From: Bilabrum cf. latius
Lineage: Eukaryota
Reading direction: 5' to 3'
Assembly (NCBI GenBank): GCA_965178125.1
Contig: OZ237741.1
Location: 186,001-250,000 of the forward strand
Length of the DNA stretch: 64,000 nt
Made by a program: the position numbers and the translations under genes. Below the pieces are notes generated by a model that saw only the letters and a list, made by a program, of their open reading frames with translations, did not search any database and was not told where the DNA came from. Position 1 is the first letter of the stretch. Each line of letters starts with the position of its first letter. Positions 2,190-44,477 of the stretch are shown here, one piece after another.

Positions 2190-5100
2190 TCAACCTCTGT
2201 GTCCCAGGGCGCGCTGCAGTGCCATGCTAGCTCCAGCCGACAGGAACGGCCTGTCAACACCAGCAGAGCCGCCCCGACTGTTCCTTGCCCCCTCGCCTCC
2301 CCCATTCGCCCTAGCCCCAGCACCGCCGGACGGTTTCCCAACAGCCGACCCACCCAGCCGATTGTCCCCGTCCAACTCCCTCAGTCTCCGATCCGCGGCG
2401 CTCGCTGCCCGCCTCGTCGCTGCGGCCCTCTTCGCCCGCTGGCTCCGCAACATCGCCATGCCCTGCCCCACCAGCTCGCCCGCACCCACCCGCGGCCGAC
2501 TCCTCGTTGGAGCCCCCGTCCACCGCTCCAGAGTGCTGGACCAGGCCCCTGTCCCGTCCATCGTGCCGCTGCCTGACTTTGCCCCCGCACCCGCCGCCAG
2601 CAGCGCGTGTGCTCTGCCACTGCACAGGGTAGACACGAAGGGCCGCCTGGGTCCGTTTTGTCTGCCACCTGCAGCAGGTGAGCCCGTGCCAGCACCGGTG
2701 CCAGCACCGGTGCCAGAGCCGGAACTGCGGCCGACGAACGTTCCCCTCCCGACCTGTGGATGACTGCCACTATGCCCTTGCTGGCCGACCGATCCGGATC
2801 CAGTGCCTCGCATGGAGCCCGCTCTGCCCATCGAGCTCCCCATGAGGTCCGCGATCGGCCGGTCTTCATCGAGGTCTCTCGAAGCACCCGCGCGATCTTG
2901 CGCCGCGATTGCACCGCCTTGCGCTGCACCCGACATGGTCCGCCGCTTTTTCCACACGTTCTCCCTTGCCGCGCCCATCGACGGTGCAGCATGGCCGCTG
3001 CTGGCCGGCGGCACCCTGGCATTGCCGTGGCGACCTGTGGCAAAGTTGCCGGTATCTTCGTCATCGGCGTCGCTCCCGCTGCTTGACAGCTCGATCTCCA
3101 GTCCTCCAGACTTGCCCGACGCACCCCTACCGAAGGCCTTCCCGGCCCGACCTGCACCGCGCTACCCAGCGAGACCACGAAGGGGCGGAGATTCGGCATC
3201 GCTGCCCAACTCCACATCGTCGTGCTCCCCTTCCAAGTCGTCCTCTTCATCGGTGTGTCCTCCGCCTCTTCCCTTCCTACCCGTTTTGCCCCCCTTGTCC
3301 TTGCCCATCATTCGTTCGTACCAGCCCTTGCAGTTACGCATCGCCGCGGCTGCTGCACCGCTAGCTGCACCCGCCACCTCCCACAGCTTGCCGCCGCACT
3401 TCTCGGCCGTGCGCCAGCCTGCCAGACCCACGCTCGCAGCCTCTCTCGCAACCTAGCTTGCAGAACCCTCAATCACACCGAGCTGCACGAAGGAAGGCAC
3501 CGCCTCCGAGCCGCCCGTGCCGCCCAATTTCACGCCGGGCCCGTGTCCCGGTACCCCCAGCAAACGCCTTGCGCAGTTCTAGCACGTTTCACCGCAGCCC
3601 ACTCCGGCGTCCCCCGGGTCGTATTGCTACCCGAAATACCGAACCAGAGCCGCCCTCCTGCAGGTCTCTCTGTCTTCTGCGTATGCCTGCATCTTGCCCA
3701 GGAGGTCGACCGCCTGTGAGCTCTGCGTCCTGCTCTTGCGCTTTCCACGGCCCGACATGGTGATCAGGCGCTTCACACGGCCTACATCCTTCCGGGAGTA
3801 TAGCAGCACGCAGTGCGCCGGAAGGCCGTCCCTCCCGGCCCTCCCCGCCTCCTGGTAGTAGCCCTCGATGCTCTTGGGTACGGAGAAGTGCACCACGAAC
3901 CGGACTGTGGCCAAGTCGATGCCCATCCCGTACGCCACTGTCGCGCACACCACGTCAATGCGGCCGTGCTGCCACAGCGTCTGCACAAGTAACCGCTGCT
4001 TTGGAGTCATGCCCGCGTGGTAAAAGTCGGCCCGCAAGCCGCCCTCTTGCAGAGCTTTGGCTGCGCGCACGGTGTCGTCTCTCGATAGGCAGTACACGAT
4101 GCCGCTCCGAGCAGCCGAACCTGCTGATGCGGCGCTTGCAGCGGTCAGTACCGGCTCCACCTTGTCATCCGTGTTTCTCGCCCTGCTGGCCCCCATCTTG
4201 CGCCTGGATGACGCGGCTGCCCTTCCGAGTGGGTCCGAGGAGGCAGCGACCGGTGGCACTGTGGGTGGGATGCAGAGCATGCGGACCACTTCCGACAACT
4301 GGTGAAGGCCTTCTCCCGCCTTGTCTGGCTTGGGGAGCACTGAAAATATTAGATTGGGACGGTCAAAGCTCTGCTGGAACACCCGCGTAGGGGAAGAGGC
4401 AGGGGAGCTGCACCGGCGTGGGGGAAGCATATCCGGAGAAGACGGGGCCGCGCCGCCGCTGCTGCTGCTGCTACTGCTGCTGCTGCCGGCACGAGCTACT
4501 CGGCCAAGGGAGTGGGGTGCGGCCTCCGCACCGCGCGGGGCTCTGCCCTGCACCGTCTGCACGCCGATTTCCGGCCTCATCTTGAGGATGTCCATCACGT
4601 CCCTGCGTACCGTCTCGGTGGCGGTGGCGGTGAGGGCCATCAGGGGGACGCCAGGGAACGTTCGTCGCAGGTTCCTGAGGTCGAGGTATGCCTTGCGGAA
4701 GTCGTGGCCCCAGCGCGACACGCAGCTGCGGTGAAACGGCGGGGAGGTGTAGTGGGGGAGTGGGGGTGGGCCGACAGGTTGCTTGAAAGCATCTGACTGT
4801 GCAGGGCGGCGTACAGTGGACGAACGGGGCTAAGAAACGAGGACGGTAGCCGTTCATCATTAAAGGATGAAGAAAGGAGGGGCACCTGTGGGGGCGCAAG
4901 GCTCGGAGTGATTGCTTGGGCAGCCAATCGTCCTGCCACCCCAAACTCACTGGCACTCGTCTACCACGATTCGGGCGAGCAGGCCCCGAGAGTGTAGGTC
5001 CCCCAACGCCTCGGAGGCGGTGCTCTCTCTCGACGCGAGTTTTTCCGGGGTCACGTACAGCAGCTTCACCGTGGGGTCGTGCCCGTCCCTGCCCGCCCGG

Positions 5101-5681
5101 AAGAGCTCCCTGTAGACGGCCCTCACCTCCTCCTCGGTCTGCTCGCTCGAGAGATAGGACGTGGGGACTGAGACCTGCAAGTCTCGGAGCAAGGCCGATA
5201 CCTGGTCTTGGATGAGCGACAGCAGAGGCGAGACCACCACGGTGACCCCTCGGTCTAGCACGGCAGGGAGCTGATAGCACAGGCTCTTCCCACCACCTGT
5301 CGGCATGATGACCATTGTGTCCCAACCTTCGAGAGAAGCTGCGATCACATCTCTCTATAAGCCCCTGAAGGAACAGCCCGGGCCGTAGAAGAGCCTCTCC
5401 AGCGTATACTGCAGCAGGTCTGGTTCCGCTGCCGCTGCCTCGCCCCGCAGAGCAGTGCCAGTATCACCCCCATGTCCTCTTGCATCGCCTGCGGGGCGAT
5501 TGCTACTACTCTTAGCGATACGTTGGCCTGCTGAGGCTGATTGGTCTTCAACTTGGTGACCCAGCATGCTGTCCTCAGCTTCGGATACAGCGTCGTCGTC
5601 GCTCGATTCCAGAATGGCGATGCGTGGACTCTGCCTCTGCTTCCTCGCATCTCGGGAGGCGCTACCGAAAAAGGATTTCAT
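2190..5681 (-). CDS. RecQ family DNA helicase (BLM/Sgs1-like) with low-complexity C-terminal tail
   Basis: Motifs FRGL*RDVI (Q-motif), [28 protein letters not shown] across intron 4726-4950, [17 protein letters not shown] and Zn-binding CRR...C..C*NC. In-frame TAG at 5355, 3627, 3579, 3453, 3162. Ends TGA at 2190. Confidence 0.93.
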
Positions 5682-15765: not shown

Positions 15766-15977
15766 CAGAAAAGACACTGACTGTACTGAGCACGACACCG
15801 TTGTCTAGACTACTTGTCCGGGCTGATCACTCGGCACAGATCCGGATCGCACGTTACCAATTGCAGAAAGATATGACACTGGGCTCACGGAGAATATTTG
15901 CTCAGCTAGGCTATTTGTGATGTCTCGATGACTCGCCAATTTGTGTAGCAAACTGCAACTGCCTGGCTAGTCCCGTG

Positions 15978-18419
15978 ATGATGTCTGCGTCTGCAGGCAA
16001 GAGTGGCTCGAAGCTCTTTTCGCAGGTGATGGATGACTGCCTCGAAATAATTCAAAATCCGAACGAGATGCAGGTAAGGTTGAATGAATTCAAACTGGCG
16101 GACGTTCTGTCGGTGCGGGGCCTCCTCAAGACTGCGGCTCAAGTACGTCGATTGAAGGTTCAGTATGTGGACGGAGCAGATACAGAGCTGGCAAGCATGG
16201 TGCACGACGTCGCACTGAGCGTGCCGTTGATGCAGATCGACTTCTGCGGTGCAATATCATTCTTGCGTTGCCCATAGCTTCTGAGGTCCCTGGCAGAGGC
16301 TGTAGATGCGGCAAGCGGCACCTTGGAGTGCTTGGGGCTTCCCGTAGCCCAAATGATGGATGATACTAAGCTCATTGACGCGTTAAAGGCTTCAATTTCC
16401 CAGTGTAGACACTTGCGTAGTTGTGTAGTGGAGTAGCGGTCCACAGATGGGCTGGGATGGTCGTCTGGACCGGACACGATGGATCTCGCCAGCTGCATCG
16501 CAGCTGCTCCGCACTTGAAGAAGCTCACCGCCAGGTCTCATCGGGCTGATAGCCTTTTGTGTGCCGGTGTGCTGCAGTCGAATCGGTCAATCCAGGTACT
16601 CGAGGGTGTCGACCTGTCTGGAGGACAAATGCTGGAATCATCGCGACTGTGGGAGGCGGTGGGCAGCAGCCCGAGCCTGAGAGAGCTCACGTGGCTGCCA
16701 CCTGTAGCGGGCGATACAGAAGGCATCAAGGCCTTGGAAGAGGGCATGGCGAAGAACACGACCCTCACGAGTCTCAAGCTGCGGCACGGGCTGAGCTCGT
16801 CGGGGGCCTGCTTCTTGGCGATCACGCGCGGCCTCGCCCGCAACCGACGTAACCGGCTCAGAGAGGTGTGTGTTGAGGCGTTCATCGAAAATACAGACGA
16901 GGAGTATGCGGGCAAGCTTCTGAACGTGTGCCCTCGCTTGCAGCAGCTGCGCCTGCACCGTGTGGGGGAGGAGGCGGCGAGTCACCTTGCTGCCGGCATG
17001 CAGCACCGGCACTGCAGACTCAAGCAATTGTGCATTCGAAGTCTTGAGGCCTCAGCAGAGACATAGAACGCGTTTATGGAGGCCTTGCACAGCTGCTCGG
17101 ACTCGCTTGAGAAGCTGCAGGTGATCCATTCGAACTTCGACAACGACCAAGGCGTAAGATCGCTGGCCTCCTGGCTTCGGACCAACACACGACTGGAGGT
17201 GCTGCAGTTCGGGCTATGCTCCGCCAATAGCTCTCAAGATGGTGAAGCCGCTTATACGGAGCTGCTCGAGGCGCTCTCCGTCAATGACACGCTGCTGACC
17301 GCTTACGTCCCCATGTCGCTGCCCGGACCGGCCTCCCCAAAGTTGGTAAGGGCTGTAGCAGCCATGCTGGAGTCAAACCACTCGCTGACTGCATGGGTCT
17401 GTCCCGGCATGCTGCTAGATTCCTTCCCAGGGGTCTCGCACGAAGCAGGGCCTGACGCGACCATCCTGCGCGCCCTCAGCATGAACCGCAGCATCGAGAG
17501 GTTCCGCATCAATCTCCTGGAACCTCAGGCAGCGAATGCCCAACTGCTAGAAGCAGCTGTAGGCAACCCCTCACTAGATACGCTCGGTGCATTGGGTCCG
17601 GTGCTCGGCCAGGCAACCTGCTCTGCCACACTGCAGGTGCTTAGTGACAAGGTGCCTGGCATGTTGGAGTTTCCTACCAGCGCACAGACGGACGAGGCAC
17701 ACGCGAGACGAATCTGGCCACCAAGCTCCCACACCGAGGACCGGCGGGCCTTCGTCGATCGCATGTTACGAAGGACAGAGCCGCCTGCTGCTGACGAGGC
17801 GGTGCGTCTCCTCGGTGTAGCATTTCCGTGCCAAAGGTCCTCTCACGGTGGCTTGGTGCGGCACCTCACCTTATCGGATGGGCAGCTCAAGGAGGTGTTT
17901 GAATTAGTGGTCACTGCTTTCCTCCGAGCCCTGGATGAAGTCGATTTCGCCGGCTGCTCCATCCTGGCACAGCGCCTGCTCCGACTGGCTGCAGATCGCA
18001 AGTAGCAGCAGTGTGGCCGCGAGTGGGGCGGAGTCTTCGATGCGGCCCGGCGGGTGTGTCGTGCGCACGGGGGGTGCAGGAGGGGCGAGCCGGGGGGCGA
18101 GTGGGTGGGGACCGTGAAGCGGTGCATGCAGCTGGGTGAGATGGAGGCAAAGCATCGGAGCCTTCACCTGTTGCTGTGGATGCGGGCTCATCGTGTGCGT
18201 CGGGATGCGGGCATGGTGTTCAAGGCGGCATCGGAGGGCCGTCCATTGGAGCTGGGGAAGCGTCTGCGTGTGGGGGTGCTGGGCGGAGGTCATCATGCTC
18301 GGGGTATGGTGCGTGGTGCTGATGGAGTCTTGGTGGATGTGAGCGCGTTGGAGGCAGCTCAACTGGGGGGTCACGATGAGTGCGTGCGGCTGCTGGAGGA
18401 AGCACATGGACTGGCCTGA
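15978..18419 (+). CDS. RNI-like leucine-rich repeat protein with C-terminal ankyrin-like module (paralogue A)
   Basis: Four same-frame ORFs joined by TAG at 16275, 16434, 17064, 18003. LRR units such as NTTLTSLKL, NTRLEVLQF, NDTLL, NRSIERF. Ends TGA. Confidence 0.8.
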
Positions 18420-19331
18420 TCCACAAACTGAGATTTGAAATAGTCGACGATGAGTCCATCTGATCGTGATGACCTTTACGTAAGCCGCATTAATTGCCAG
18501 CTAGACTTTCACGCCTGTCTTTATTGGCCCTGGTTGCCTCCCCAAACCACCCACCATTGCAAGAGTATGCGCACTAAGTGCACCGTACCCGATAGTCTTG
18601 GCGCCACGCCGTCACTGTCCACTATGCCGGAGCCAGTGGCATCGCCGCCTAACTCACAAGGTGGGGCTGGTATAAACAGTGACCCCCGTCACTCCCGATC
18701 CTGCCAAACACGCGCTCGGCTAAAATTTGCCAAAGACTTAGATTATTGAGGAGTGCGCCCCGGCCGATCACCTGCAAGGGAGTTACAGTGTGTCTCATGA
18801 CCTCAAGCGAGCTTGCCTGTACCGGAGGCATGCAGCATCACCCCATCGCCTCTTTCAGCAGCCGCACGCACCCATCGTGACCCCCCAGTTGAGCTGCCTC
18901 CAACGCGCTCACATCCACCTAGACTCCATCAGCACCACGCACCATACCCCGAGCATGATGACCTCCGCCCAGCACCCCCACACGCAGACGCTTCCCCAGC
19001 TCCAATGGACGGCCCTCCGATGCCGCCTTGAACACCATGCCCGCATCCCGACGCACACGATGAGCCCGCATCCACAGCAACAGGTGAAGGCTCCGATGCT
19101 TTGCCTCCATCTCACCCAGCTGCATGCACCGCTTCACGGCCCCCACCCACTCGCCCCCCGGCTCGCCCCTCCTGCACCCCCTGTGCGCGCGACACACCCG
19201 CCGGGCCGCATCGAAGACTCCGCCCCACTCGCGGCCACACTGCTGCTATTGCTTGCCGTCCGCAGCCAGTCGGAGCAGGCGCTGTGCCAGGATGGAGCAG
19301 CCGGCGAAATCGACTTCATCCAGGGCTCGGG
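17923..19331. repeat. Inverted repeat: ~17923-18396 versus ~18855-19331 (near-identical 3' ends of the two LRR genes)
   Basis: Direct reverse-complement match by eye, with few substitutions and one 3-nt indel. A further matching block is ~17730-17828 versus ~19423-19520. Confidence 0.92.
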
Positions 19332-21279
19332 TGATTGCTTCGGCAACGAACCGAAATACCTTGCGAAGCTGCTCAGCCGACAGGACTAGAGCGGGGACCA
19401 ATTCAAAGCGTTTCTATGGTTGCGGAAATGCTACACCGAGGAGACGCACCGCCTCGTCAGCAGAAGGCGGCTCTGTCCTTCGCAACATGCGATCGACGAA
19501 GGCGCGGCGGTCCTCGGTGTGTACAGTGTGGTCCCACACCGGTCGAATCATACCCGTGTCGGCACATCGGACTTCCCCAGGAAATCTGAGCATGCTTGGG
19601 GCAACCTTCGACAGTGTGCCTACTACCTCTGCGGCAGTTGTCTCGTCTAGCCTTGGGTTTGCCCTACAGTGCTCAATCGCATCGAGTGACGGGTTGCTCG
19701 CCACAGCTTCAAGCAGCATCATGCCGTGCTCGTTCCACAAAGCATCGCAGACTTGCACTGAGAGACTGCATATGCTGCGATTGCTCGCGAGTGCAGCCAG
19801 CAGGGCCTATGATTCCTTGCTCTATGCTCTGGTCTACCCTCCCCCTCCCTCAGCCGTGCGGAGCGGGAGAGTCTGCGGCCAGTGCACCAACGAGTGGTTG
19901 GCACGCAGTGTGTCTGCCATCGCGAGCAAAACCTCCGAACCCTGATCACCTCCAACGAGCGATAGATCCACCGATAGCAACGTGTCATTGTGCGCAAGCG
20001 CACGCAGGATGGTGATGGCGCCATCCGACCGCATGGAGTCGCACTCGATATCGAGAGACTCCAGTTTCGTATCATCGCGTATCCAGTCGGCGATGGCAGG
20101 CGCATCGGAGTCATCGAAGTTTGACTACTGCGTCAAAAAGTTCTCAAGCGAGTCGCAGCACGGGCAACAGCGGAGAGCCTGCAGCAAGAGCCTGCGGCAT
20201 TCTTTGTTGGCAAACAAGTTAGCTACTGACAGTTTCTTGAGGTTGCAACTGGCTTCCTTGAGGCCATTGACCAAGTACTGCACGCCAGCATCATCCAGTG
20301 CGTCCAGCCATATCTCCTACAGCTGCGGGCACAGTCCTACAAGCCTGCCACCATGTGGTTGATCATCATCCTCGACTGTTGCAGGGAGATCAAGACTGCG
20401 CAATCGATTTCGGCCGTTTCGGGCCAGCCCATCGGCGAGAGCCCTGCAGCACACGACAGGCAGGAAGGGGTGGTCTCCTAGCGAAAGGCTCGTCAGGCAC
20501 GTGTTGGTGGCCATGCACTCATCCAGAGCTTTCTACCCCTCCTCGTCCGTCAACTTGGGAGAGATCCATGTCAGGTCTTCAAGGGTCCTGCTGCCCGCCA
20601 CTGCCCTCCAAAAGCGGGCATCCCGGTGCCCCGGGAGGCACTCGAGGACCGTGCACTTGAGCGTGCGGATGGTTCTGCTGTGCTGGAGTAGCCCAGAGCA
20701 GATCGGACTGTCGCTCCGTAAGTAATTTACCACCACTTCTTGCAGTACGGGTGCCGCTGCGATGCACCGGCCCAACTCGAAAGTCTCCAGCGACAAGTCT
20801 GGTTGCTCTGATTCTGCGACGTTCATCCCAAGCAATCGACACGTCTTCAATCGCAAGCAGCGAGACAGTGCACTTGGTAGCAGTCCCTGCAGCTTATGAT
20901 CGCCTAGTAGCGGTCCTAATGGCAACTCCAGTGACTCCAGCTGTTCGGCGAGACGGGACACTACCAAGAACACAGATCGAACTACGGCAGGCTCGAGCAT
21001 GCAGCCGAATGCGTCGCCCAGCTCTAAATCATTCACATGCGGGAAATTGCGAGATGTAATGCCCACGCCGGTCTCCTCGGTTGCGCCGGATATCTTTATC
21101 ACTCGCAGTTGCGGTGCCGCCCTCATAGCTTCGCATGCTCCAATTAAGTCCGCATGGGGCATGTATGCTGGTGTAAAGTGGGCCCTGCAGACATTTTGAA
21201 CGATTGAAGCGGTCGGCATGCCAGTGAATGCTGATGAGCAGGATAGCAAAACTCTGTTGTTGCCGTCTCTCAGCTGCAT
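18838..21279 (-). CDS. RNI-like leucine-rich repeat protein (paralogue B), convergent with paralogue A
   Basis: Single frame with nine TAGs (20533, 20317, 20125, 19834, 19822, 19807, 19414, 19246, 18919). Colinear with A (e.g. LGRCIAAAP vs LASCIAAAP, GLARNGRNRLR vs GLARNRRNRLR, HTEDRRAFVDRMLRR). Ends TGA 18838. Confidence 0.8.
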
Positions 21280-21605
21280 GATGAGGACTGCGAGGCCAAG
21301 CTTATATCGTAATCAAGTCCAAGTCTCAGGTTTCCGAATGAATTATTATATAGAGGCTCAGCAACCACGGAGTACTGATGAACTACTGGATCCGGACAAG
21401 CCGCCTGCTTGTACATTTATACTCCCTCTCATTTCAGCATGCCAATAGTAGATCTAGATGCATGAGGCATTCATCAGCGAGTCGTTATGGTTGGTTCCTT
21501 CATGGTAGGCCAGCCGAGTTTGCGTCACAATGCCGCGCCCCCGTCACTACGAGGGTGAGATTGAGAATGCAGTGCTTCAGTGGCCTTCCCGGACCGGCTG
21601 AGCAA

Positions 21606-22849
21606 TTAGTGGCCCAGAGCTTGTTGTAGCAGTCTTTCGCACTCGTCATGATCCCCCAGCCGAGCTGCCTCAAGCGGACTGACTTGCCTTTTGGAACCAG
21701 ATCCATCCGTAATCTCGCCCTTGATCTCCAGCCCGCCCGCCAGCTTGCCCAGCCTCAGCCTCCTGGCCAGCTCCATGGGCCTGCCCTCAGCTGCTGCCTA
21801 GAACACCATTCCCGCGTCCCTCTTGGCCTCAGCAGCACGCCGGAATCGATTCATGCGCTGCATCCGGGGGCTCAGCCAAGCCACGTCCTGCAGCCTCCCG
21901 CTCACTCTGTCCCTGCGGTGGAACAGCTCCCTCAGCGCCACCCGCGGGTCACCATGCCCCGCCGCCAGCGCCTCTGTGATGGCGACGTGGCTCCGCTCGC
22001 CTGGCAATAGGCCCGAGGCCTGGCTGAATACACTTCGCCGGTGCACATACAAGGCTTCCTCCGGCAGCTTGCCCGCGTAGTGATCCCGAGTGCCGCGGAT
22101 GTCCATGCGGGCCCCGGCGTCGAGCAGCACGGCCACGCAGCTGGCACTAGCCTGGTGCACGGCATCGTGCAGGGGCGTGGCTCCCCACTGCGACCATCAA
22201 TAGGTTGGTACCAATGCTGTACGGCTGGTGGCTGGTGGCGCAAGGGTGCGTGCGCCCTGCGGCGAGTCGTGAGCAAATCGAAATTGTTTATTCTCACCTC
22301 GTTTACGGCATTGATGTCTGCGCCGGCTTTGATCAATGCCCGGCAGATAGCAGGCTCCTTGTCATACGCGGATCTATGCAACGGTGTTACGCCAAACTGC
22401 GATGGAATCTTAAGCACAGCAAGGCTGTCACTGGTAGTGCAGCCTGCGGGCTCGAAGCGTGATGCGGTTTTAGACCACCCATAGGGGCTCACGTCACTGT
22501 CCACATTAACACAATTCCCCATTCTGCATATCTATTGCACCATTGCGATATTTTTCGACACGATCGCAGCAAAGAGTAATGTCTGGCCATCCTGCGTGCG
22601 CAGAACACAGCGAGTGTGATACATTGCATTGGACACTGGTCCGTGCAGAGATACATCGTACTGCAATACAAAATGAGTATTGTTATCACTTACACAGTGA
22701 CGGTTAATGGTTGTGACAAGGATACTCAACTGGACGTCAGACAGGGACTCTGCCATGGCTTTGGCGGTGGCTACATCCCCCCTCTTTACCACAGGCCAGA
22801 ACTCTGCCAATTTGTTGCGTATCTCAAAATGATTGTGCACACCACTCAT
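21606..22849 (-). CDS. Ankyrin repeat protein sharing its C-terminal module with the LRR paralogues
   Basis: Ankyrin motifs DGQTLLFAA, FGVTPLHRSA, LIKAGADIN, WGATPLHDAV. Probable introns 22592-22693, 22397-22492, 22188-22297. TAG at 22532 and 21798. Ends TAA 21606. Confidence 0.8.
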
Positions 22850-23000
22850 TGAAATTAGTTGTATGGAAATTAGTTGTAAACAGAGTCCAAATATGAAATC
22901 CGAACCCAAGTACTTTATTGCTGTTCGTGTAAATGTACAGTGCTGTTATTGGTATTCACAGGGCGATTGCCGCTGTGCAATCAATAACAAATTGTTGAAT

Positions 23001-24695
23001 ATGGCAGCTGTTGGCGGTGCTGCATCTGGTGGCGCTGGTAGTGGGTAGCCATCTGCACCCACTGGCGCTGCTGCGGTTATGACAAAGGCCCAAAAAGCGG
23101 AGGCAAGAGAGCGCGCTGAGCAGCTGGTGCTCCAGTTGCTGTCCACCGATGACAAGGCCAATATTGATACGTATTAGCTTGCAGCTGACAGCTCTAATTC
23201 GTGCTCTAATAAAGATCTAGAGGCTGCTGTAAAATCCTTGGAGCTCGATGGGTATGTGTCCCAAACTGCCAGCTCAGTTCCTGAGTACTTTCTCACCGAA
23301 GCTGGCCAGTAGATCGAGGCAGCTGGCCAGTCTCCTGAAGTTGAACTATATAATTTGGTACCAGTAGGAGAAGAGGGCATCCCAATGAAGGAGCTGAAGG
23401 CAGCCGCAAGCCCACTGGCGTTCAAGTCTTTGAAGGATGCCTAGAAGAAGGGGTTGCTGAAGTCTCGCAAGGGGGTCGTAGTGCGTAACGTTGCTGAGGC
23501 TGACGATCCGATTGTTGGACAGCTGCGTGCAGTCAAAGCCGACAAGTCGCACGAACCAGATGCGAACATCGTGAAGCGCAAGTTTGTCAAGGTAGTGTGA
23601 GGTGCGCCCATCTTCCATGGCTTCAAGTCCGCGCGACACCTGCATGCCATCCCCACCACCACCTCATTGTCCGCTTTCTTTTCTATTTTTCTCCGTGGAA
23701 ACCGCAGCAAGGTGCGCCGGTACGAAGTGACCAGGGGGGGCTCGTACCAGCCCGTGAGGGTCAAGCCCGTGGCCGACCTGACCAAGGAGATGATGGTCTC
23801 GGGAGACTGGGAGAAGGCCACCTTCAAGCCCTACAACTTCGACGCAGAAGGGGTGGAGCCTCGAGGCGGCCACCTGCACACGCTCCTCAAGGTACGCGCC
23901 GAGTTTAGGCGGGTGCTCATGGGCATGGGCTTCAGCGAGATGCCCACCAGCCGATACGTCGAGTCCTCGTTCTGGAACTTTGACGCGCTGTACCAGCCGC
24001 AGTCGCACCCCGCGAGGGACGCCCACGACACGTTCTTCGTGTCTGAGCCCGCGGCCACTCGCGACATCCCCAAGGAGTACATGGAGATTGTGAAGAAGAC
24101 GCATGAGAAGGGCGGGTTCGGGTCGGTTGGGTACGGCTGCGATTGGAAGGAGGAAGAGGCCAGGAAGAACATCCTGAGGACGCACACCACGGCCGTGTCC
24201 GCGCGCATGCTGTACAAGCTGGCCAACCAGGAAGGCGGCTTCAAGCCTGTCAAGTATTTCAGCATCGACAGGGTCTTCAGGAACGAGGCCCTTGATGCCA
24301 CGCACCTTGCCGAGTTCCACCAGGTGGAGGGTGTGGTGGCAGACTACAACCTGGGACTGGCAGATCTCATCGGAACCATCCGCAGCTTCTTCCACCAGAT
24401 CGGCATCACCAAGCTGCGCTTCAAGCCGGCCTACAACCCCTACACGGAGCCTAGCATGGAGATCTTCGGGTACCACCCCGACCTCAAGTCGTGGACGGAG
24501 ATCGGCAACTCGGGCGTGTTCCGACCCGAGATGCTGCGGCCGATGGGGCTGCCCAAGGACGTGCGCGTGATCGCGTGGGGCCTGTCCCTCGAGCGCCCCA
24601 CGATGATCAAGTACAGGGTGAAGAACATCCGCAAGCTGTTCGGGCACAAGGTCAGGATCGGGATGGTTCGCAAGACTCCGCTGGTGCGCTTCTGA
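23001..24695 (+). CDS. FARSA: Cytosolic phenylalanyl-tRNA synthetase alpha subunit
   Basis: [64 protein letters not shown]. Exon 1 (23001-23596) has TAG at 23046, 23175, 23310, 23442. Intron 23597-23707. Ends TGA. Confidence 0.96.
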
Positions 24696-24826
24696 GCGGT
24701 GGCGCTGGCTTATCCATCGCGAGTGGCTTGCTAGGAATTGTGCTCTGTGTCTGAAGTGATTCGCACACATTGCTCCATCTGTGTGCCTGCGACAATTCGC
24801 CTGAAGTGACTGGTACAACGTGCGGC

Positions 24827-27676: not shown

Positions 27677-27795
27677 GGCTGGTAGCCAGTGTTCAAATGT
27701 TGTTAATCACTTGGGGGGAATTTCGCGGTGGAGGGCCTATGACTCGGTCATTGCGGAAACTATATGAACATGTATATTTGCACCCTTACTGGCGA

Positions 27796-30700
27796 TTAAT
27801 CATCCAGGCCGTCGAGAAATCCATCATCCTCGTACTCATCATCTGCGTCGTCCGGAGCCGCTGGCGCTGGCGACGGTGCAGACGTGGTTGCTGCAGCAGG
27901 TGCCGGTGACGAGGCAAATTCACCCTCGGGGCCCTATCCACCACTTGTACGTCCAGCCACCGGTACCTCCGACGCCGCCGCAGCGCCCCCCGCCGCATGA
28001 CGAGCGGGCCCAGGCCCAGACCCAGACCCAGACCCAAACCCAGACCCAGACCCAGACGCCCTGGATCTATCACCGGCCGTGCTGGCAGCAGCTGCCTCCC
28101 GGGAGCTGCTGGCTGCTGCGCTTGCGCTTGATCTGGCTCCCATGCTCGACTCGATCCCAGGGAACAGCGAAGGGTCTGCCACCCACGGAACGGCACTCCC
28201 TCCGTACAGCCGCTCCCCTCCCGTTCCGATTCCGAATCCTCCACTCGAGGAGGATGGAATCTCCAGATCCGCAGGCCACTCCGCACCCTCGAGGTCGTCG
28301 TCGTCCTCCTCGTCCTAGTCTTCGCCGCCCCCAAGCCCACCCAAGCCAAACCCACCGCCTCGCCCCACAGCGCTCTCTCCCACCTCCTCTCCAATCCCGC
28401 CATCGCCCCCGGCCCCAGTACCAGCACCAGCACCAGCACCAGCACCAACACCAGCTCCTGCTTGCCCCAGCTCCCGCGCAAGCCGCTCTTCGCCGGCCTC
28501 TGCCGTGCCCAGGGCGGGAGGCAGGCGCCAGACCCGGACCCTTCCGGCAGAGTCGCACGATGCGATCAGCTTTCGGTGGGCGTGGCTGAACGCGACACCC
28601 GTCACCCGGGCCTCCTCCGCGCTGTCCGGTTCCGCAACCTTTGCGCGGCGCCGCTTCCCTCTCCGAGACCCTGCCCCATCCTCCTCCTCGTCTCCACCCT
28701 CCCCCTCCCCGTCCCCCTCCCCCTCCACTATCCCCTCCACCACTGCCAGGCTGTGCTCCGCCAGCGCAATCGCTTGCAGCCGAGGTAGCACGTCCACCGC
28801 ATTCCCGCCGAGCTGTGCCCCTGGGGGCGGCACCACGGTCTGTGCCCCCCCGTCTGCCGACACGCTCACGGTACTCCCATCTGCCAGCAGACGGCAGGCG
28901 GCCGCAGAGGGGCCCAGCCCGTACAAATCAAAGACGTGCACGGTGCCTCGCGCGCTGCCGCAGGCAACCACCAGTGGCCTGACCCTGGAAAACCCCACCG
29001 AGGGCACCGCCACCATCCTGCCCGCGCCCTCGGGCTCCAGCTCCACCAGAGCACTCCCGCCCAACACGGTGCTGATGCGGAGCGTCCCGTCCTGGCAGCC
29101 CGTCAGCACCAGTCTGCGGTCGAACGGGGAGGCATCCGATCCCGCAGTGGCGCCTCCGTGGGGCGCCATGGCCGCCTTGATGGGGCTGGGGAACAGATGC
29201 TCGGGGGCAGGGCGGGAGGCCAGCATGAGCGGCAGGGACACGACGTCTGCGCGCTCTGAAGTGGCGAGTCGCTCCGCCGCTTTGACCACCTTGGCCATGG
29301 ATCCTTCGTCCCCCGAGTTGGTCGCAACCCACGCAGCGTCCGCGTCCCACCGCATCCGGGCCCCCGCCCTGGCCTTGAGCACACGTGCCGCTTCCCCATC
29401 CGAGGCATAGGAGCGAGACCCGCGGATCCTAGCGCCCACTCCAGACATGTAGCCCTGTACCATGGCCCCACCCTCGCAGCCCAGCACCAGCGCACCACTA
29501 GGTCCCGTGCCCATCGCGCTGGCGGGCAGAGGGGCCCCCTCACAGGGCAGCGCCACAGTCGACAATCGCAGGGTCAGCTCCTGCCCCGTGTCCCTAACAA
29601 CACCGCCAATGCTCGACGCACCACCGCCGGCTGATCCAATGCCACTGGAGCTGCTGCCGCGGCCCACAGCAGCAGACCCGCCGCCAACGTCCTCGTCCTC
29701 CCCAAAGCCGCCGTCGTCCCCGAAATCGAAGCCGTCCACCTCAGCAGGGACGTCCCCAGCCGACGCGCCTGCCCCTCCCCCGCCCAAAGCGTCCACGTCT
29801 GCCCTTTTAGCACCAATATTCCCGCCTCTTTGCTCCTCCATCAGCGCTTTCCTCCTCCTCCGCTCCGTCCGAGCCACCATGCCCGAGGCGGCGCTCCTCA
29901 GCCCAAGCACAGGGACCTTCATCCCGGGCCCCTGCCGATCCATCGGCCTCCAGAGGTTGATCCTGCCGTCCGCAGACGCAGACAACAAGAGGTACTCCCG
30001 CGTTGAGGCCTCCTGGAACCACCGCAGTGCAATGATCCCGTCCCTATGGAAGTAGTCGTCCAGCTGGCTGCAGCCCACCAGGGCATCCCCAGCCCGCGAC
30101 GTGTCCCACACATACACCTCGCCGCTTCTGCCCCCAGCAGCCACCACCGCCGGCAGCGTAGGGTGCGCGGCCACGCACAGGACGGAGGTTGTTGTCTCGA
30201 GAACAGCGGAGGGTGGCAGCGCGCCCGTCAGCAGCCGCTCGTTGGCCTCTCGACGAGCCCGCATGCCCGCTGTCTCGAGGTCGCGGTCGCGGGCGGCCGG
30301 CCCTGCCTGCAGCTGGCCCAGCCGACCGCTCGATGCCTAGCTGCCATCTAGGGCGCCGCCTGAGCTGGATCTGGCGCTTGTGCTTGTGCGTGCGAATGGC
30401 TCCCAGCACACGACCCCCGCCCTCGTGGAATCGAACCCGGGATCCTCCGTCAGGCCAAAGCCTGCATATAATCTCATGCCAGTGCAGCTCCATGCGATGC
30501 TCGTGGCCGGCAGAACCAGGCACGGGCCCTCCTCCAGCTGGCCTCCCGAGCGAGCGGCCTTGGCCTGCTCCGCCTCGCTCTGGTTTTCCACGTCTAGCGG
30601 TTGCACAAAGGCGTGGGAGAGCGTGTGCAGGCATGCTGCTTGCTCATTATCATTATCAGGCGGCGGCTAAAGCCCTGCGGTGCGATGAAGCGATGGCAGC

Positions 30701-31160
30701 GGGGGAGATCTAAAAGCCCAGCTTGCCTGGAACCAGAACAGCGGATCGCATGCAAAGCAATGCCTCACCGAGAAACGCGACGCTCTTGTCACCGTCTTCC
30801 AAAGCTTTCAGCATAGATGAGCCAGCACGCTGAAATGCATCTACCTCGCTTGCTGAAGGCTTCCAGTGCCCAAAATCTAGATCTGCGAACTCGTCGGCAC
30901 CGTCGTCCAGATCCGCTTGTACCTGCGCAAAAAGCCAGGAGCTTGTATGGCAAAATCTGTACCGCGACCTTGTGGAGCTGGTGCAAAGCATGCCTTTCAC
31001 TCACCCCTACGTCCTACTTGATGTCAGTTTGCATGTCAGCATCTATCGTCTCATACGGCAAGGCATCGACTCCTGTGGATTTTTTCTCAGTTTTTTTCCT
31101 CCAGGTGGATAAAACACTTATATTCTAGCTTGTGGGTACATCATCGAATGCAACCGCCAT
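27796..31160 (-). CDS. WDR34: WD-repeat dynein-2 intermediate chain (WDR34/DYNC2I2-like)
   Basis: SIAWSCTG..LYAGFG, VLCVAAHPTLPAVVAAGGRSGEVYVWD, DDYFHRDGI, SPFDRRLVLT, FSRVRPLVVA. Introns 30923-31004 and 30594-30768. TAG at 31125, 31014, 30337, 28315, 27934. Ends TAA 27796. Confidence 0.82.
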
Positions 31161-31786
31161 GCGAATTGGCAGAAATGCGAACGGTCTTGCTTGAACGGGC
31201 ACTATCGTCACACCACCACTTGCACAGGCGTCGCGTGTTGCAGATCTAGGCCTACGAGAAAGTTTGGTGCCGCTGGTGGGTCCAACGACTGAGGCAGATC
31301 ATGCTTTGGGCCGGTGCAGGACGGGGACAAGCCGCTCACGGCGGTATCTCCACTGGTGTTAGGGTAGAGGCGCGGGGTCGGGGGGCTGACTGCCGCCCGG
31401 GGCACTGCTGGCAGAGAGCTTCAATGCGAGTGGGAGAGAAGGCGGGCCCACTGGTGGCACGATCACGAGTCCGCTACATGCGGGACAGCATTGAGAGCAG
31501 AATGGTACAAACGTAATGGGCTAGCGTTGCCAGTCCCGGGCCTGGACAGAGGGTGCTAGGGCGCTGGCAGCCTGGCAGTGGAGTGGTCATGTCGCGCATG
31601 GGGCCAGGCGGTGGTGGTGGTTGGCGTTGTATCGACCAACTTCTGCAAAGCAACTTTATCCAGCATATGCGAGACGGCTTCGAGTCCAAAGCCGCCGTGT
31701 TAATGTTGCGTGCAAGTATGGAGAATAATCAGACCGTACCACGGCTTGCTGAGGCACCAGCATACTCTCCGGCACTGCACGACAAA

Positions 31787-34365: not shown

Positions 34366-34653
34366 AGGGTGTGCCATGAGCAGTGAATGGCAGATACATC
34401 GACGAGGACTGATCGGGATGTGGGTGGAGAAGGCAGAGCTGCTGCGACTAGCTACAATCCAAGGATGGACCACTGGCGCTGCAAATTGGCAGCATTGGGC
34501 GACTTGGCCCCGCGGTGACCTTCTTTGGGCCGGAACTTGAGTACCTCCGCCGATACGGCAACTGCAGGGGTCTTTGTGCGCTTGCAATCCAACTTCATGC
34601 GGATGTGCTCAAAGATGAGTGTGCCAGAAATAACAACAAATCGAGGCACGGGC

Positions 34654-37593: not shown

Positions 37594-39420
37594 ATGGCAG
37601 GTGGATTTCCATTTCATGCATTCGGAGGTATCCCGATGGGTGGAGGAACCCGCGTTTTCATGGGAGGCATGCCAGGGGGCATGCCAGGGGGCTTCGGTGG
37701 ATTCCCTGGAATGGGGGGCCACGGGCCGGACGATTCCGACGACGAGGGAGAGGTGAGGCCGTTAATCCCCGCTTATGCATCCTCAATACGCGTGCAGTAA
37801 TTGTCTTGACTGCGTGGGTGCGCTAGGGGTTCGGTTTGTTGTAGTTCCCGGTTCTCCAAGCCGAGGGTGTCCACCTGGCAGCACCGGCGTACCGCTCCAG
37901 TGCTGACTTTGATGCTCGTCAATGTCTGCGCATGGAAACAAATCATGTTGATATTTCATTATCAAATGCACTGGGACTCTCTTGTGGGTCCGGCACACTG
38001 TAATTTGCATGGGCTTGCACCCTTTGAACGTCACTCGAGGGCATTGCCGTGTTCTCAGGTATGAGCTTTCCCTCCTGATCGCAGATGGACAACGAGACCT
38101 ATTACAATGTACTTGGAGTTGAGAAGGATGCTTCTCTCTCTGAGATCAAGAAAGCCTACAGGGTTCGAATGATGAAAGTGAGCAGTGTCTTCAAGCGACG
38201 ACGTGGAACCTCATGCTTCGGCTGCCTGCGATTTCGGCTTGCTAGCAGCCCAAACACGGTCATCGTTGATGTATAAATGAACTACTTGGACTTACATACG
38301 TGCTATTTCTAGATGCAACTGTATGGCTGGGCACTGTCGAGCCTGCAATGAGCGCATGTTCGCCCAGTGCCTCCCTTCCGTGTGCTTGTGCAACCTTCAT
38401 GCTGCATGTATCCATTATTCTTGTGTATCACAGGGCGAGTATAGGCATCCTGATCGCGGCGGAGACAAGGACAAGTTTTCCCTCCTGCAGAAAGCGTACG
38501 AGGCGCTGAGCGACGCAGAGTCCAGGGCTGTCTACAACGCAAAGGGCGAGAAGGGTTTGCAGCGCATGTCAGAGGGAGCCAGCGGCGGGGGCTCCAAGCC
38601 CAAGGGCAGGTCCTCCATGGTCCGCGTGCGCTTGACGCTGGAGGAGATGTACAACGGGAAGAAGGTCGTCGTCCCCGTGGACGCCGACACCTTCGAGCCC
38701 GACCCCAGGGGGTCGGTGATGACCCCCGACGGGCGAAGGTTCCGCAAGGTGTCCACACGGAAGCGCCTCGAGGTGCACGTGCCCCCTGGGGCGCGCAACG
38801 GACAGCGCATCACCTTCGACGGGGAGGGCGACAAGATGCCCGGCATGGACCCCGGGGATGTCGTGGTGGTGCTGCAGCAGCAGAAGCACTCCGTGTTCGA
38901 GCGCAAGGGCGCCGACCTGATCTTGCAGAAGGAGATCTCTCTGTGCGAGGCACTCACAGGGGTGGACTTCACCTTCACGCACCTGGACGGTTCCAGGGTG
39001 CGCATCCGCAGCAAGCCGGGCGAGATCCTGGGCCCCAAGACCGTCAAGGAGGTGGCTGGGGAGGGCATGCCCGTCCTGGGGCACGAGCGGTACATGAAGG
39101 GGGCGCTCTTCGTGGCCTTTGAGGTTGATTTCCCCGACAAGCTGCAGCTCAGCGTGGCGCAGCGGAGGGCACTCATCAGCGTGCTGCGGGGCACGGACGC
39201 TTTCAAGGTGGGGGACGAGCAGGCGGCGGCCGGCCGCGGGGCCAAGCCCGCCCCTGGCTCGGAAAGGGAAGAGGCCGCTGGCGCTGGGGAGGCCAAGGAG
39301 GAGTTCAAGGAGCTGGTGGACGTGGACCTGGAGGCCAGAAAGGCCCGTGAGGAGCTGAGCAAGGAGACGTACGACTCGGACGAGGAGCAGGGAGGAGGCG
39401 TGCAGTGCGCCCAGGCGTGA
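37594..39420 (+). CDS. Hsp40/DnaJ chaperone, DNAJA/Ydj1-like but lacking the zinc-finger region
   Basis: Exons 37594-37752, 38085-38177, 38434-39420. J domain YYNVLGV...IKKAYR...HPDRGGD, C-domain PGDVVVVL...HSVFERKGADL...ISLCEALTG, terminal CAAX-like VQCAQA. Ends TGA. No TAG. Confidence 0.92.
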
Positions 39421-44326: not shown

Positions 44327-44477
44327 GTGTGGACCAGGACTCGAGATACACGAAATCCGATGCGTACATGACTACAATTTCCTAATCTATTCAAGCCAAG
44401 CAACACCGAAGGCGCCTGGGTCAGCTGACACTGGCCTGAACTCTGTGATCCACACCCAGCACATTAGCCTCCTTTCA

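What the first reader, a model, noticed from the sequence alone, without database searches (positions are those of the whole stretch)
21606..21800. UAA stays a stop while UAG is reassigned (uncoupled UAR codons)
Seen: the ankyrin gene has TAG at 21798 inside the shared module, then ends in TAA at 21606, within two codons of where the homologous LRR modules end in TGA. TAA also ends RPC4 (54459), WDR34 (27796) and the K+ channel (44478), and is never internal. Established: most eukaryotic reassignments (many ciliates, diplomonads, some ulvophytes) change UAA and UAG together. UAG=Gln alone corresponds to translation table 15 and is known from few nuclei, such as the fornicate Iotanema spirale and some ciliates. 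Inference: this needs an eRF1 that discriminates UAG from UAA/UGA plus a tRNA-Gln(CUA).
Basis: partly seen in the sequence, partly recalled or inferred. Interest (0 to 1): 0.88.

Follow-up and report, generated by a model that had tools for sequence, protein, structure and literature searches.

The report
UAG reads glutamine, UAA still stops
This GC-rich protist genome, whose closest matches are golden-brown algae, uses the stop codon UAG as an ordinary glutamine codon while UAA and UGA still end its genes, a rare genetic-code variant that I could not find reported for this group.

Summary
TAG at 21798-21800 lies in frame in the last exon of the ankyrin gene. The gene ends in TAA at 21606-21608, one codon away from where the two paralogous LRR genes end in TGA.

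In 15,769 codons of 19 genes I count 75 in-frame TAG, 0 internal TAA and 0 internal TGA. The terminators are 14 TGA and 4 TAA. In spans bounded only by homology or RNA splice sites (2,856 codons) the counts are 21 TAG, 0 TAA, 0 TGA, against about 21, 10 and 62 per off-frame.

Spliced transcript contigs from three runs carry the four TAGs of PheRS exon 1 unchanged.

TAG sits at the invariant glutamine of RecQ motif 0 (114 of 114 homologues). In 78 copies of a shared C-terminal module, mostly from metagenome relatives, 43 TAG positions favour Gln by 58 bits. Of the relatives' copies, 61 end in TGA (42) or TAA (19).

This is an NCBI table 15-type code. It is known from a few protists, and four literature searches found no stramenopile case. 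The tRNA and eRF1 could not be examined. Earlier scan notes report the same code in giant viruses and phages, on other DNA.

The parts
21798..21800 (-). In-frame TAG in the last exon of the ankyrin gene, inside the shared C-terminal module (GMVF[TAG]AAAEGRP)
   Evidence: At this column LRR_A and LRR_B have AAG (Lys). The 56 family representatives have R 20, Q 15, K 10, N 4, A 3, and E, H, D, T 1 each.
21606..21608 (-). TAA terminator of the ankyrin gene
   Evidence: The protein ends 10 residues after the conserved Cys. LRR_B ends after 9 and LRR_A after 11, both in TGA; the family mode is 9. GC is 0.60 in the 150 bases upstream and 0.57 downstream. The next in-frame stop is 25 codons on.
21606..22187 (-). 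Last exon of the ankyrin gene (194 codons including the stop)
   Evidence: The splice joint 22187/22298 (CT..AC on the + strand) is seen in a contig of run X5. There is a Pfam Ank hit at the exon start.
22493..22590 (-). Ankyrin-repeat exon with an in-frame TAG at 22532-22534
   Evidence: Joints 22396/22493 and 22590/22693. The translation is GQTLLFAAIVSKNIAMVQ[TAG]ICRMGNCVNVDSD, with an Ank_3 hit.
18838..21312 (-). LRR_B paralogue. It is an 824-codon frame with 9 in-frame TAG, no TAA or TGA, and it ends in TGA at 18838-18840.
15921..18419 (+). LRR_A paralogue. It has 4 in-frame TAG and ends in TGA at 18417-18419.
   Evidence: The alignment to LRR_B covers 785 positions, 389 identical.
23001..24695 (+). 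Phenylalanyl-tRNA synthetase alpha gene. The intron is 23597-23707. In-frame TAGs lie at 23046, 23175, 23310 and 23442. The stop is TGA at 24693.
   Evidence: Pfam hits. tblastn of 8 of 8 homologues aligns in one frame. Spliced contigs of X5, X6 and X7 cover all four TAGs with 0 other letters.
2190..5681 (-). RecQ/BLM-like helicase gene. The exons are 4951-5681 and 2190-4725. Conserved-column TAGs lie at 5355-5357 (motif 0 Gln), 3627-3629 (YFG[x]) and 3579-3581 (C[x]NC). The stop is TGA.
27796..27798 (-). TAA terminator of the WD40 (WDR34-like) gene
   Evidence: GC falls from 0.61 to 0.47 after it, and the next in-frame stop is 15 codons on.
44475..44480 (-). TAA terminator of the K+ channel gene, followed at once by TGA (tandem stops)
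54459..54461 (+). TAA terminator of the RPC4 gene
   Evidence: GC falls from 0.68 to 0.51, and the next in-frame stop is 11 codons on.
39418..39420 (+). TGA terminator of the DnaJ gene, directly after a C-terminal CAQA that looks like a CaaX box (motif name recalled)

Best explanation
The window is nuclear DNA of a GC-rich eukaryote whose PheRS is closest to ochrophyte stramenopiles. It uses a table 15-type genetic code. UAG is translated as glutamine throughout its genes, at about 10% of glutamine codons. UAA and UGA remain the only terminators.

Shown here:
- TAG is in frame in expressed, spliced, homology-supported coding sequence.
- TAA and TGA are excluded from reading frames and sit at gene ends.
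- Glutamine is the residue that fits the TAG positions best.
- Relatives in metagenomes share the pattern.

Inferred, not shown:
- A tRNA-Gln with anticodon CUA decodes the codon. That anticodon pairs with UAG but not with UAA.
- The eRF1 N-domain has lost affinity for UAG while keeping UAA and UGA.
For: (1) In-frame stop triplets. In 21 coding segments of 19 genes (15,769 codons) there are 75 in-frame TAG, 0 internal TAA and 0 internal TGA. The terminal codons are 14 TGA and 4 TAA. The off-frames of the same sequence hold TAG 94 and 77, TAA 27 and 45, TGA 234 and 246.

(2) Non-circular spans, bounded by homology or RNA splice sites (2,856 codons). These hold TAG 21, TAA 0, TGA 0, against off-frame sums over two frames of 42, 20 and 125.

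(3) RNA. Contigs of runs X5, X6 and X7 skip the GT..AG intron 23597-23707. They cover the four TAGs of PheRS exon 1 with 0 other letters. The ankyrin introns are spliced as well.

(4) Paralogues. Homology continues past every aligned TAG of LRR_A, LRR_B and the ankyrin gene. The pairings include TAG-CAG, TAG-TAG, TAG-AAG and TAG-TTG.

(5) Amino acid. TAG stands at RecQ motif 0, where 114 of 114 non-gap homologues have Gln. At YFG[x] the homologues have E 91 and Q 22 of 120. At the module column of the ankyrin TAG, Q is 15 of 56. A Codetta-like log-odds over 43 TAG positions in 78 unique module copies gives Q +41.0 bits, with R next at -16.8. The same procedure recovered the right residue for 8 of the 9 control codons it reached.

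(6) TAA as a stop. After all 18 terminators GC is lower, and further stops follow. The K+ channel has TAA directly followed by TGA. In the relatives, 61 unique module copies end in TGA (42) or TAA (19), with a modal distance of 9 residues from the conserved Cys, as in the window. Their 63 module cores (4,871 codons) hold TAG 20, TAA 0 and TGA 1.

(7) TAG is not depleted near gene ends: 3 lie within 50 codons of a stop against 4.1 expected.
Against: - One strongly conserved column disagrees with Gln. At RecQ C[x]NC the homologues have D in 116 of 119 and Q in 0.
- At one PheRS column the homologues have M 64 and L 19 of 85.
- Swapping the residue at TAG barely changes the Pfam scores. For DUF4062: Y 34.0, L 32.6, W 32.2, Q 31.9, E 31.3, K and S 30.8. 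For Ank_3: L 17.6, E 16.8, Q 16.7, only these three tested.
- Most of the 43 positions behind the 58-bit margin come from relatives at 52% GC, not from the window's organism, and the copies are paralogues, so they are not independent.
- One gene (the coiled-coil gene at 34654-37467) has a TAG 4 codons before its TGA and could end there.
- 2 of the 61 relatives' copies carry TAG at the modal end position, and one relative's core has an in-frame TGA.
- The window gives only 18 gene ends.
- ORFs were first defined as free of TAA and TGA, which is circular for the large count.
- No tRNA gene, eRF1 or peptide evidence was available.
Confidence: 0.85

Rival explanations
1. Both UAR codons are reassigned, as in table 6. 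In-frame TAA is merely rare because the genome is 64% GC, and TAA doubles as a context-dependent stop, as in Blastocrithidia.
For: TAA is the rarest stop triplet (328 on both strands, against TAG 713 and TGA 1,370). A-ending codons are disfavoured (CAA 117 against CAG 526).
Against: Scaling 75 TAG by the A-ending to G-ending ratios of other codon pairs predicts 8 to 28 in-frame TAA, and 0 are seen (P 4e-4 or less). 4 of 18 genes end in TAA, with a GC drop and nearby further stops. In the relatives at 52% GC, the cores hold 0 TAA against 20 TAG in 4,871 codons, and 19 of 61 ends are TAA. Treating TAA as sense lengthens the relatives' upstream open frames by only 10%, against 78% for TAG.
Confidence: 0.04
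2. UAG is a sense codon but encodes another residue (Glu, Asp, Lys, Leu or Tyr), or a mixture inserted by near-cognate tRNAs.
For: - RecQ C[x]NC has D in 116 of 119 homologues, and YFG[x] has E in 91 of 120.
- A PheRS column has M or L in 83 of 85.
- Paralogue pairings include TAG-AAG and TAG-TTG.
- Pfam scores are slightly higher with Y or L.
- Two near-identical metagenome loci (L028, L035) pair TAG with Tyr (output).
Against: The invariant Gln of RecQ motif 0 (114 of 114) aligns with TAG. Over 43 positions Q scores +41 bits, against R -16.8, K -27.2, D -43.7, E -55.7, Y -66.7 and L -93.3. By my count from the contexts printed, 13 of about 75 TAG codons sit next to a CAG or CAA codon, which is more than the Gln frequency alone would give.
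Confidence: 0.06
3. The code is ambiguous. UAG is read as sense inside genes but also terminates at gene ends, depending on context, as in Condylostoma.
For: The coiled-coil gene at 34654-37467 has a TAG 4 codons before its TGA. 2 of 61 relatives' module copies have TAG at the modal end position.
Against: TAG is not depleted near stops: 3 observed against 4.1 expected within 50 codons. In LRR_B, homology to LRR_A runs on for 26 residues past a TAG 27 codons from the end. 21 of 61 relatives' copies carry TAG between the conserved Cys and a TGA or TAA, at varied sense positions. At most 1 of the 18 window genes could end in TAG.
Confidence: 0.04
4. There is no code change. The in-frame TAGs lie in introns or pseudogenes, or are removed by RNA editing or are assembly errors.
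For: Some TAGs in my first ORF list did turn out to be intronic or antisense. Examples are the first TAG of the RecQ ORF and the 13 TAGs of the frame antisense to the sulfatase gene.
Against: Spliced contigs keep the PheRS TAGs with 0 other letters in three runs, and no differences were listed at any TAG between 15900 and 35899. Pseudogenes would also accumulate TGA and TAA, which are 0 in frame against 125 and 20 in the two off-frames of the same spans. Essential genes (PheRS, RecQ motif 0) are affected.
Confidence: 0.01

Closest known systems
Iotanema spirale (Fornicata): UAG = Gln, with UAA and UGA as stops (PMC5304391, passages read)
   Same: The codon table is the same: UAG is sense, UAA and UGA are kept as terminators, and UAG is not used as a bona fide stop. 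The kind of evidence is also the same, namely in-frame UAG at conserved Gln positions and orthologue-defined ends.
   Different: It is an unrelated lineage, a metamonad and anaerobic endobiont. Here PheRS is closest to ochrophyte stramenopiles and the genome is 64% GC. For Iotanema an eRF1 change (T32G in the GTS motif) was reported. Here eRF1 could not be seen.
Ciliates with UAG = Gln only: Hartmannula sinica, Trochilia petrani, Protocruzia tuzeti (PMC11687900, passages read)
   Same: [quoted passage not shown] Here 16 of 19 genes do.
   Different: In those ciliates UAA is by far the main stop. Here TGA dominates (14 of 18) and TAA is the minority stop (4 of 18). The phylum is different.
Other uncoupled UAG codes: rhizarian exLh (UAG = Leu), Scotinosphaera (UAG = Ser), phyllopharyngean MAGs (UAG = Leu) (PMC5304391; PMC11687900)
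   Same: UAG is reassigned alone while UAA stays a stop. The expected logic is a tRNA with anticodon CUA.
   Different: The amino acid differs. Leu scores -93 bits and Ser -28 bits, against +41 for Gln.
Table 6 codes (UAA and UAG = Gln) in many ciliates, Hexamita, some ulvophytes, Streblomastix and Amoeboaphelidium (as listed in PMC11687900)
   Same: UAG is read as Gln.
   Different: TAA is not a sense codon here: 0 in-frame TAA in 15,769 codons, and 4 TAA terminators.
Giant viruses and phages reading TAG as Gln with TAA and TGA as stops
   Same: The codon table is the same.
   Different: Those are viral genomes whose hosts are unknown. This is a cellular nuclear genome with introns. A scan of viral contigs for the window's module family found no relative, so no link is shown.

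Membership tests
Table 15-type nuclear code (UAG = Gln; UAA and UGA stops) | UAG occurs in frame inside expressed, conserved coding sequence | tested here: met
   There are 75 in-frame TAG in 15,769 codons and 21 in 2,856 homology- or RNA-bounded codons. Spliced contigs carry 4 TAGs of PheRS unchanged.
Table 15-type nuclear code (UAG = Gln; UAA and UGA stops) | UAG positions correspond to glutamine in homologues | tested here: met
   RecQ motif 0 has Q in 114 of 114 homologues. Q scores +41 bits against -16.8 for the next residue, over 43 positions in 78 module copies, with controls right in 8 of 9. Against it: the C[x]NC column has D in 116 of 119. Most positions come from relatives, not from the window.
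Table 15-type nuclear code (UAG = Gln; UAA and UGA stops) | UAA terminates genes and is absent from reading frames | tested here: met
   4 of 18 terminators are TAA, including one at a paralogue-defined end and one TAA-TGA tandem. Internal TAA is 0, against 8 to 28 expected. In the relatives 19 of 61 ends are TAA, and the cores hold 0 TAA.
Table 15-type nuclear code (UAG = Gln; UAA and UGA stops) | UGA terminates genes and is absent from reading frames | tested here: met
   14 of 18 terminators are TGA. These include PheRS at the homologues' C-terminus and DnaJ after its terminal CAQA. Internal TGA is 0, against 234 and 246 in the off-frames.
Table 15-type nuclear code (UAG = Gln; UAA and UGA stops) | UAG no longer serves as a terminator | tested here: inconclusive
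   At most 1 of 18 window genes and 2 of 61 relatives' module copies could end at TAG. There is no depletion near the 3' ends. The sample is too small to exclude rare use.
Table 15-type nuclear code (UAG = Gln; UAA and UGA stops) | A tRNA-Gln with anticodon CUA, and none with UUA | not testable with these tools
   No tRNA gene lies in the window or in the 80 related loci. No whole genome is held.
Table 15-type nuclear code (UAG = Gln; UAA and UGA stops) | eRF1 N-domain changes that weaken UAG recognition | not testable with these tools
Table 6-type code (UAA and UAG = Gln) | UAA occurs in frame at sense positions | tested here: not met
   There are 0 in-frame TAA in 15,769 codons, 0 in 2,856 non-circular codons and 0 in 4,871 codons of the relatives.
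Ambiguous stop/sense codes (Condylostoma, Blastocrithidia types) | The reassigned codon also terminates at gene ends and is depleted just upstream of true stops | tested here: not met
   3 TAG lie within 50 codons of a stop, against 4.1 expected. Homology continues past late TAGs. The sample is small.

The most novel reading that the evidence does not exclude
A clade of stramenopile protists uses UAG = Gln with UAA and UGA as stops. The clade comprises the 64% GC organism of this window and at least one relative at 52% GC, seen in several metagenomes. This would be the first nuclear stop-codon reassignment in stramenopiles. It would also be an independent origin of the uncoupled UAG code in a GC-rich genome, where UAG should once have been a commonly used stop. 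Such organisms would be candidate hosts for the giant viruses that read TAG as glutamine.
Probability: 0.5. Interest if true: 0.78.

Novelty: new member of a known kind. Interest (0 to 1): 0.7.

Why it matters
Nuclear code changes are rare, and those that separate UAG from UAA are rarer still. The passages read from PMC11687900 and PMC5304391 list one rhizarian, one fornicate, one green-algal genus and a few ciliates.

A new, independent case would matter for four reasons:
- It adds a test of how eRF1 can drop UAG while keeping UAA and UGA.
- It sits in a GC-rich genome, which argues against simple AT-driven codon capture.
- Public DNA and transcript data exist, so tRNA, eRF1, proteomic and ribosome-profiling tests look feasible.
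- Standard gene callers will truncate most of this organism's proteins. Here 16 of 19 genes contain a TAG.

It also gives a cellular counterpart to the giant viruses that use the same code and whose hosts are unknown (scan notes; PMC13524828 states that all confirmed giant-virus isolates came from hosts using the standard code).

Tried and rejected
- Whole-genome search: none is held. The scan's notes for this genome: none.
- tRNA and Rfam scans of the window found nothing. tRNA scans of the 80 loci found nothing.
- A codon-usage log-likelihood classifier of stop triplets was too weak to be useful. It labelled only 6 TAG as 'internal-like', so I dropped it in favour of homology- and RNA-bounded spans.
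- Swapping the residue at TAG and comparing Pfam scores did not discriminate. I did not extend it to the sulfatase segments as first planned.
- PheRS N-terminal columns: 3 of the 4 TAG columns are unconserved or mostly gaps.
- The scan of viral contigs for the module family found 123 pattern matches but no confirmed relative.
- No listed holder run is on record as RNA. Runs X5 to X7 were only guessed to be RNA, and their spliced contigs are what I rely on.
- Parts of the laid stretch had no transcript cover. I could not see whether transcript contigs reach the TAA at 21606 or the TAG at 21798. Contigs break there because the 21712-21785 core is repeated.
- I dropped from the counts the frame at 31729-33342 (-) with 13 TAG, because it is antisense to the sulfatase gene. 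I also dropped TAGs upstream of the first Met or inside introns.
- Four literature searches found no report of a nuclear UAG reassignment in stramenopiles.
Full report
**What the window is.** It is 64,000 bases at about 63-64% GC, with spliceosomal introns and eukaryotic genes (Pfam). The genes are:
- a DUF4062/NACHT-like gene;
- a RecQ/BLM-like helicase;
- KIN17;
- three long coiled-coil genes;
- two paralogous LRR-type genes (no Pfam hit);
- an ankyrin gene;
- phenylalanyl-tRNA synthetase alpha (PheRS);
- a WD40 (WDR34-like) gene;
- a sulfatase;
- DnaJ;
- a voltage-gated-type K+ channel;
- RPC4;
- PRP3;
- the C-terminal part of XRN1.

No whole genome is held. The PheRS core is 68-75% identical to its best database hits. 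Apart from the top row (an insect record at 51% identity), every named hit among the 120 listed is an ochrophyte stramenopile: diatoms, Parmales, Ectocarpus, Chrysoparadoxa. RecQ hits are led by a EukProt transcript, Cafeteria and oomycetes. I therefore call the organism an ochrophyte-like stramenopile and go no further.

**The observation.** On the minus strand TAG lies at 21798-21800 and TAA at 21606-21608. A transcript contig joins 22187 to 22298 (CT..AC, that is GT..AG on the gene's strand). The last ankyrin exon is therefore 21606-22187, and it is open from the splice site through the TAG to the TAA.

Its last 76 residues align with the C-termini of both LRR genes (42 and 43 identical). 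The TAG faces AAG (Lys) in both, and homology continues for 62 residues after it.

This C-terminal piece is a widespread module. A search of 1.84 billion representatives with LRR_B gave 526 hits at E 0.001 or better. I picked out 56 of the 150 listed hits that match only this module. Counted from a conserved Cys, the proteins end after 9 (LRR_B, TGA), 10 (ankyrin, TAA) and 11 (LRR_A, TGA) residues. The modal end among 53 family members with that Cys is 9.

**Is TAG a sense codon?** I built approximate coding sequences for 19 genes in 21 segments. Each ORF was trimmed to the first Met or to the start of homology. Introns were removed where RNA contigs or splice motifs defined them. I dropped a frame antisense to the sulfatase gene (13 TAG) and TAGs lying in introns or upstream of the first Met.

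In 15,769 codons there are 75 in-frame TAG, no internal TAA and no internal TGA. The two off-frames of the same sequence hold TAG 94 and 77, TAA 27 and 45, TGA 234 and 246.

The ORFs had been defined as free of TAA and TGA, so I repeated the count on spans bounded only by homology or RNA evidence:
- PheRS from the start of the tblastn alignments to its stop;
- RecQ from motif 0 to the zinc-binding motif;
- the aligned parts of LRR_A and LRR_B;
- the two RNA-defined ankyrin exons.

These 2,856 codons hold 21 TAG, 0 TAA and 0 TGA in frame. The off-frames average 21, 10 and 62 per frame. TAG is thus as common in frame as out of frame, while the other two are excluded.

16 of 19 genes carry at least one TAG. 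KIN17, DnaJ and a 1,057-codon gene of unknown function carry none.

**RNA.** One call laid four coded runs on 15900-35899. Contigs of X5, X6 and X7 skip 23597-23707 (GT..AG) at depths 165.6, 15.2 and 41.7. They cover 22994/23004/22999-23596 plus the next exon with 0 other letters. All four TAGs of PheRS exon 1 (23046, 23175, 23310, 23442) are therefore present, unedited, in spliced transcripts upstream of the catalytic core of an essential enzyme.

With this intron removed the coding sequence is in frame. The ankyrin, WD40 and sulfatase introns are also seen as joints. No differing letter was listed at any TAG in the laid stretch.

An in-frame TAA at 32449 that follows an open sulfatase frame lies inside the intron 32448-32580, which is removed in X5.

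The runs are only guessed to be RNA by the tool. I rely on the splicing.

**Which amino acid?** Evidence from the window itself:
- RecQ (120 homologues):
  - motif 0, TAG at 5355-5357: Q in 114 of 114 non-gap rows;
  - YFG[x]: E 91, Q 22;
  - C[x]NC: D 116 of 119, Q 0. This column speaks against Gln.
- PheRS (85 homologues): one column has M 64 and L 19. The other three are unconserved or mostly gaps.
- Paralogue pairings: one each of TAG-CAG, TAG-TAG and TAG-TTG, plus eight other codons. The ankyrin TAG faces AAG.
- Module column of the ankyrin TAG: R 20, Q 15, K 10, N 4, A 3, and E, H, D, T 1 each. L, S, Y and W are absent.
- Pfam scores with TAG read as Q, E, L, K, S, Y or W differ by 3 bits or less.

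On its own the window favours Gln only moderately.

**Relatives.** A scan of metagenome contigs with the module alignment gave 333 pattern matches. Of these, 111 were confirmed and 80 kept (193 kb, mean GC 52%, 39-66% identical to the query by best segment). They come from another organism or organisms of the same gene family.

TAG is in frame there as well. The open frames upstream of the module sum to 4,227 codons under the standard code. They sum to 7,505 if TAG is sense, but only 4,643 if TAA is sense and 4,592 if TGA is sense.

I aligned 78 unique module copies. There were 83 in all; one was dropped for an early TGA or TAA and four as duplicates. Three of the 78 are from the window. I then scored the 43 TAG positions that fall in columns at least 60% occupied. 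Gln scores +41.0 bits, followed by R -16.8, K -27.2, S -27.7, D -43.7, E -55.7, Y -66.7 and L -93.3.

The signal comes above all from one column with Q in 69 of 74 rows (4 TAG) and two columns where Q is the commonest residue (3 TAG each).

Applied to ordinary codons, the same procedure gave the right residue for CAA, CAG, GAA, AAA, AGA, TTG and TAC. For TCG it put Ala narrowly ahead of Ser. The script then crashed before the last three controls. The copies are paralogues, so the bits overstate independent evidence, but the ranking is clear.

**Is TAA really a stop?**
- In the window 14 genes end in TGA and 4 in TAA.
- After each of the 18 terminators GC is lower than before it. It falls from 0.55-0.75 upstream (150 bases) to 0.47-0.65 downstream; the KIN17 gene is level at 0.55, and the ankyrin drop is small (0.60 to 0.57). 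Further in-frame stops follow.
- Scaling the 75 TAG by CAA/CAG (117/526) predicts 16.7 in-frame TAA. Other A-ending to G-ending ratios predict 7.7 to 28.3. None is seen.
- Of 328 TAA triplets on both strands, 22 have at least 80 open codons on each side. By my inspection all are off-frame, antisense or in untranslated sequence relative to the annotated genes.
- In the relatives, my pattern for the conserved Cys failed in 14 of 80 loci. After removing duplicates and copies running off their contig, 61 copies remain, and they end in TGA (42) or TAA (19). The commonest distance from the Cys is 9 residues (19 copies), as in the window. 54 end within 25 residues, 39 in TGA and 15 in TAA.
- Their 63 unique module cores (4,871 codons) contain TAG 20, TAA 0 and TGA 1. 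From CAA/CAG, 4.4 TAA would be expected (P of zero 0.012).

**Is TAG also a stop?** TAG codons are spread evenly along the genes (19, 12, 14, 11, 12 per fifth). They are not depleted near ends: 3 lie within 50 codons of a stop against 4.1 expected. LRR_B keeps near-identity to LRR_A for 26 residues past a TAG 27 codons from its end.

One coiled-coil gene has a TAG four codons before its TGA and could end there. In the relatives, 21 of 61 copies have a TAG between the conserved Cys and the terminator, at varied sense positions, and 2 have it at the modal end position. Rare terminator use cannot be excluded from this sample.

**Mechanism.** Shown here: the codon usage, and the presence of TAG in spliced transcripts. 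Inferred from established knowledge (passages of PMC5304391 and PMC11687900):
- A tRNA with anticodon CUA reads UAG but not UAA, which allows UAG to change alone.
- A tRNA with anticodon UUA would drag both codons along.
- eRF1 must lose UAG recognition while keeping UAA and UGA. A T32G change in the GTS motif was reported for Iotanema.

Neither molecule could be examined here.

**Comparison and novelty.** The codon table equals NCBI table 15. According to the passages read, UAG = Gln with UAA kept as a stop is known from Iotanema spirale, Protocruzia tuzeti, Hartmannula sinica and Trochilia petrani. Other UAG-only codes give Leu (rhizarian exLh, some phyllopharyngean MAGs) or Ser (Scotinosphaera).

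Four full-text searches found no report of a nuclear stop-codon reassignment in stramenopiles. The library is incomplete and supplements are closed, and public runs of this organism date from 2025, so a description may exist or be in preparation. I file it as a new member of a known kind.

Two features differ from the known cases. The genome is GC-rich, and TGA rather than TAA is the main stop.

Earlier notes of this scan describe giant viruses and phages with the same table on other DNA. The viral notes postulate an unknown host with this code. I found no link to them.

Noticed in passing
window 21712-21785 (and 18841-19140, 18108-18416): The C-terminal module shared by the ankyrin and LRR genes (consensus RDAgmVFxAAaEGRPlELxKRLRLGkLAGG ... 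lEAArlGGHdeCv) is a large family with no Pfam model. Word depth over the bin holding its 74-base core is about 14 times the neighbouring depth in DNA run X1 (712 against about 50) and is also high in X5. At least 56 protein-cluster representatives and 111 confirmed metagenome stretches carry it. Its second half looks like an ankyrin-repeat remnant (my reading).
   Followed up: partly
window 41093-44326 (+), 7209-8798 (+), 38281-39420 (+): Three genes have no TAG at all: an unknown gene of 1,057 codons, KIN17 and DnaJ. At the average rate the unknown gene alone should have about 5. TAG use seems uneven between genes, perhaps with expression level.
   Followed up: no
window 3579-3581 (-): The RecQ zinc-binding motif reads C-[TAG]-N-C where 116 of 119 homologues have C-D-N-C. 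If TAG is Gln, this helicase has an unusual Gln at a nearly invariant Asp.
   Followed up: partly
window 31873-32150 (+): A contig of X5 joins 31873 to 32150 with 25 other letters in between and GT..CA ends. This may be a micro-exon or an alternative 5' exon of the sulfatase gene.
   Followed up: no
L028 and L035 (metagenome loci): Two near-identical module copies differ by TAG against a Tyr codon at one position (…LLLRQW[TAG]DGTGG… against …LLLRQWYDGTGG…). Both continue open for more than 140 codons past the usual module end.
   Followed up: no
window 24827-27706 (-): A 950-codon gene has no Pfam hit and 6 in-frame TAG. Its C-terminal part resembles, from memory only, the motif region of alpha-1,3-fucosyltransferases.
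   Followed up: no
window 2190-2192 (-): The RecQ gene's TGA and the start of the next gene's open frame (DUF4062/NACHT-like) lie in the same reading frame. The first Met of the downstream gene is 88 codons further on.
   Followed up: no
run X5: The tool labels X5 'RNA? (probably DNA)'. Yet X5 holds contigs spliced at seven GT..AG introns, plus the odd joint noted above, while also covering all 30 bins. It is probably a transcript library with some genomic carry-over.
   Followed up: no
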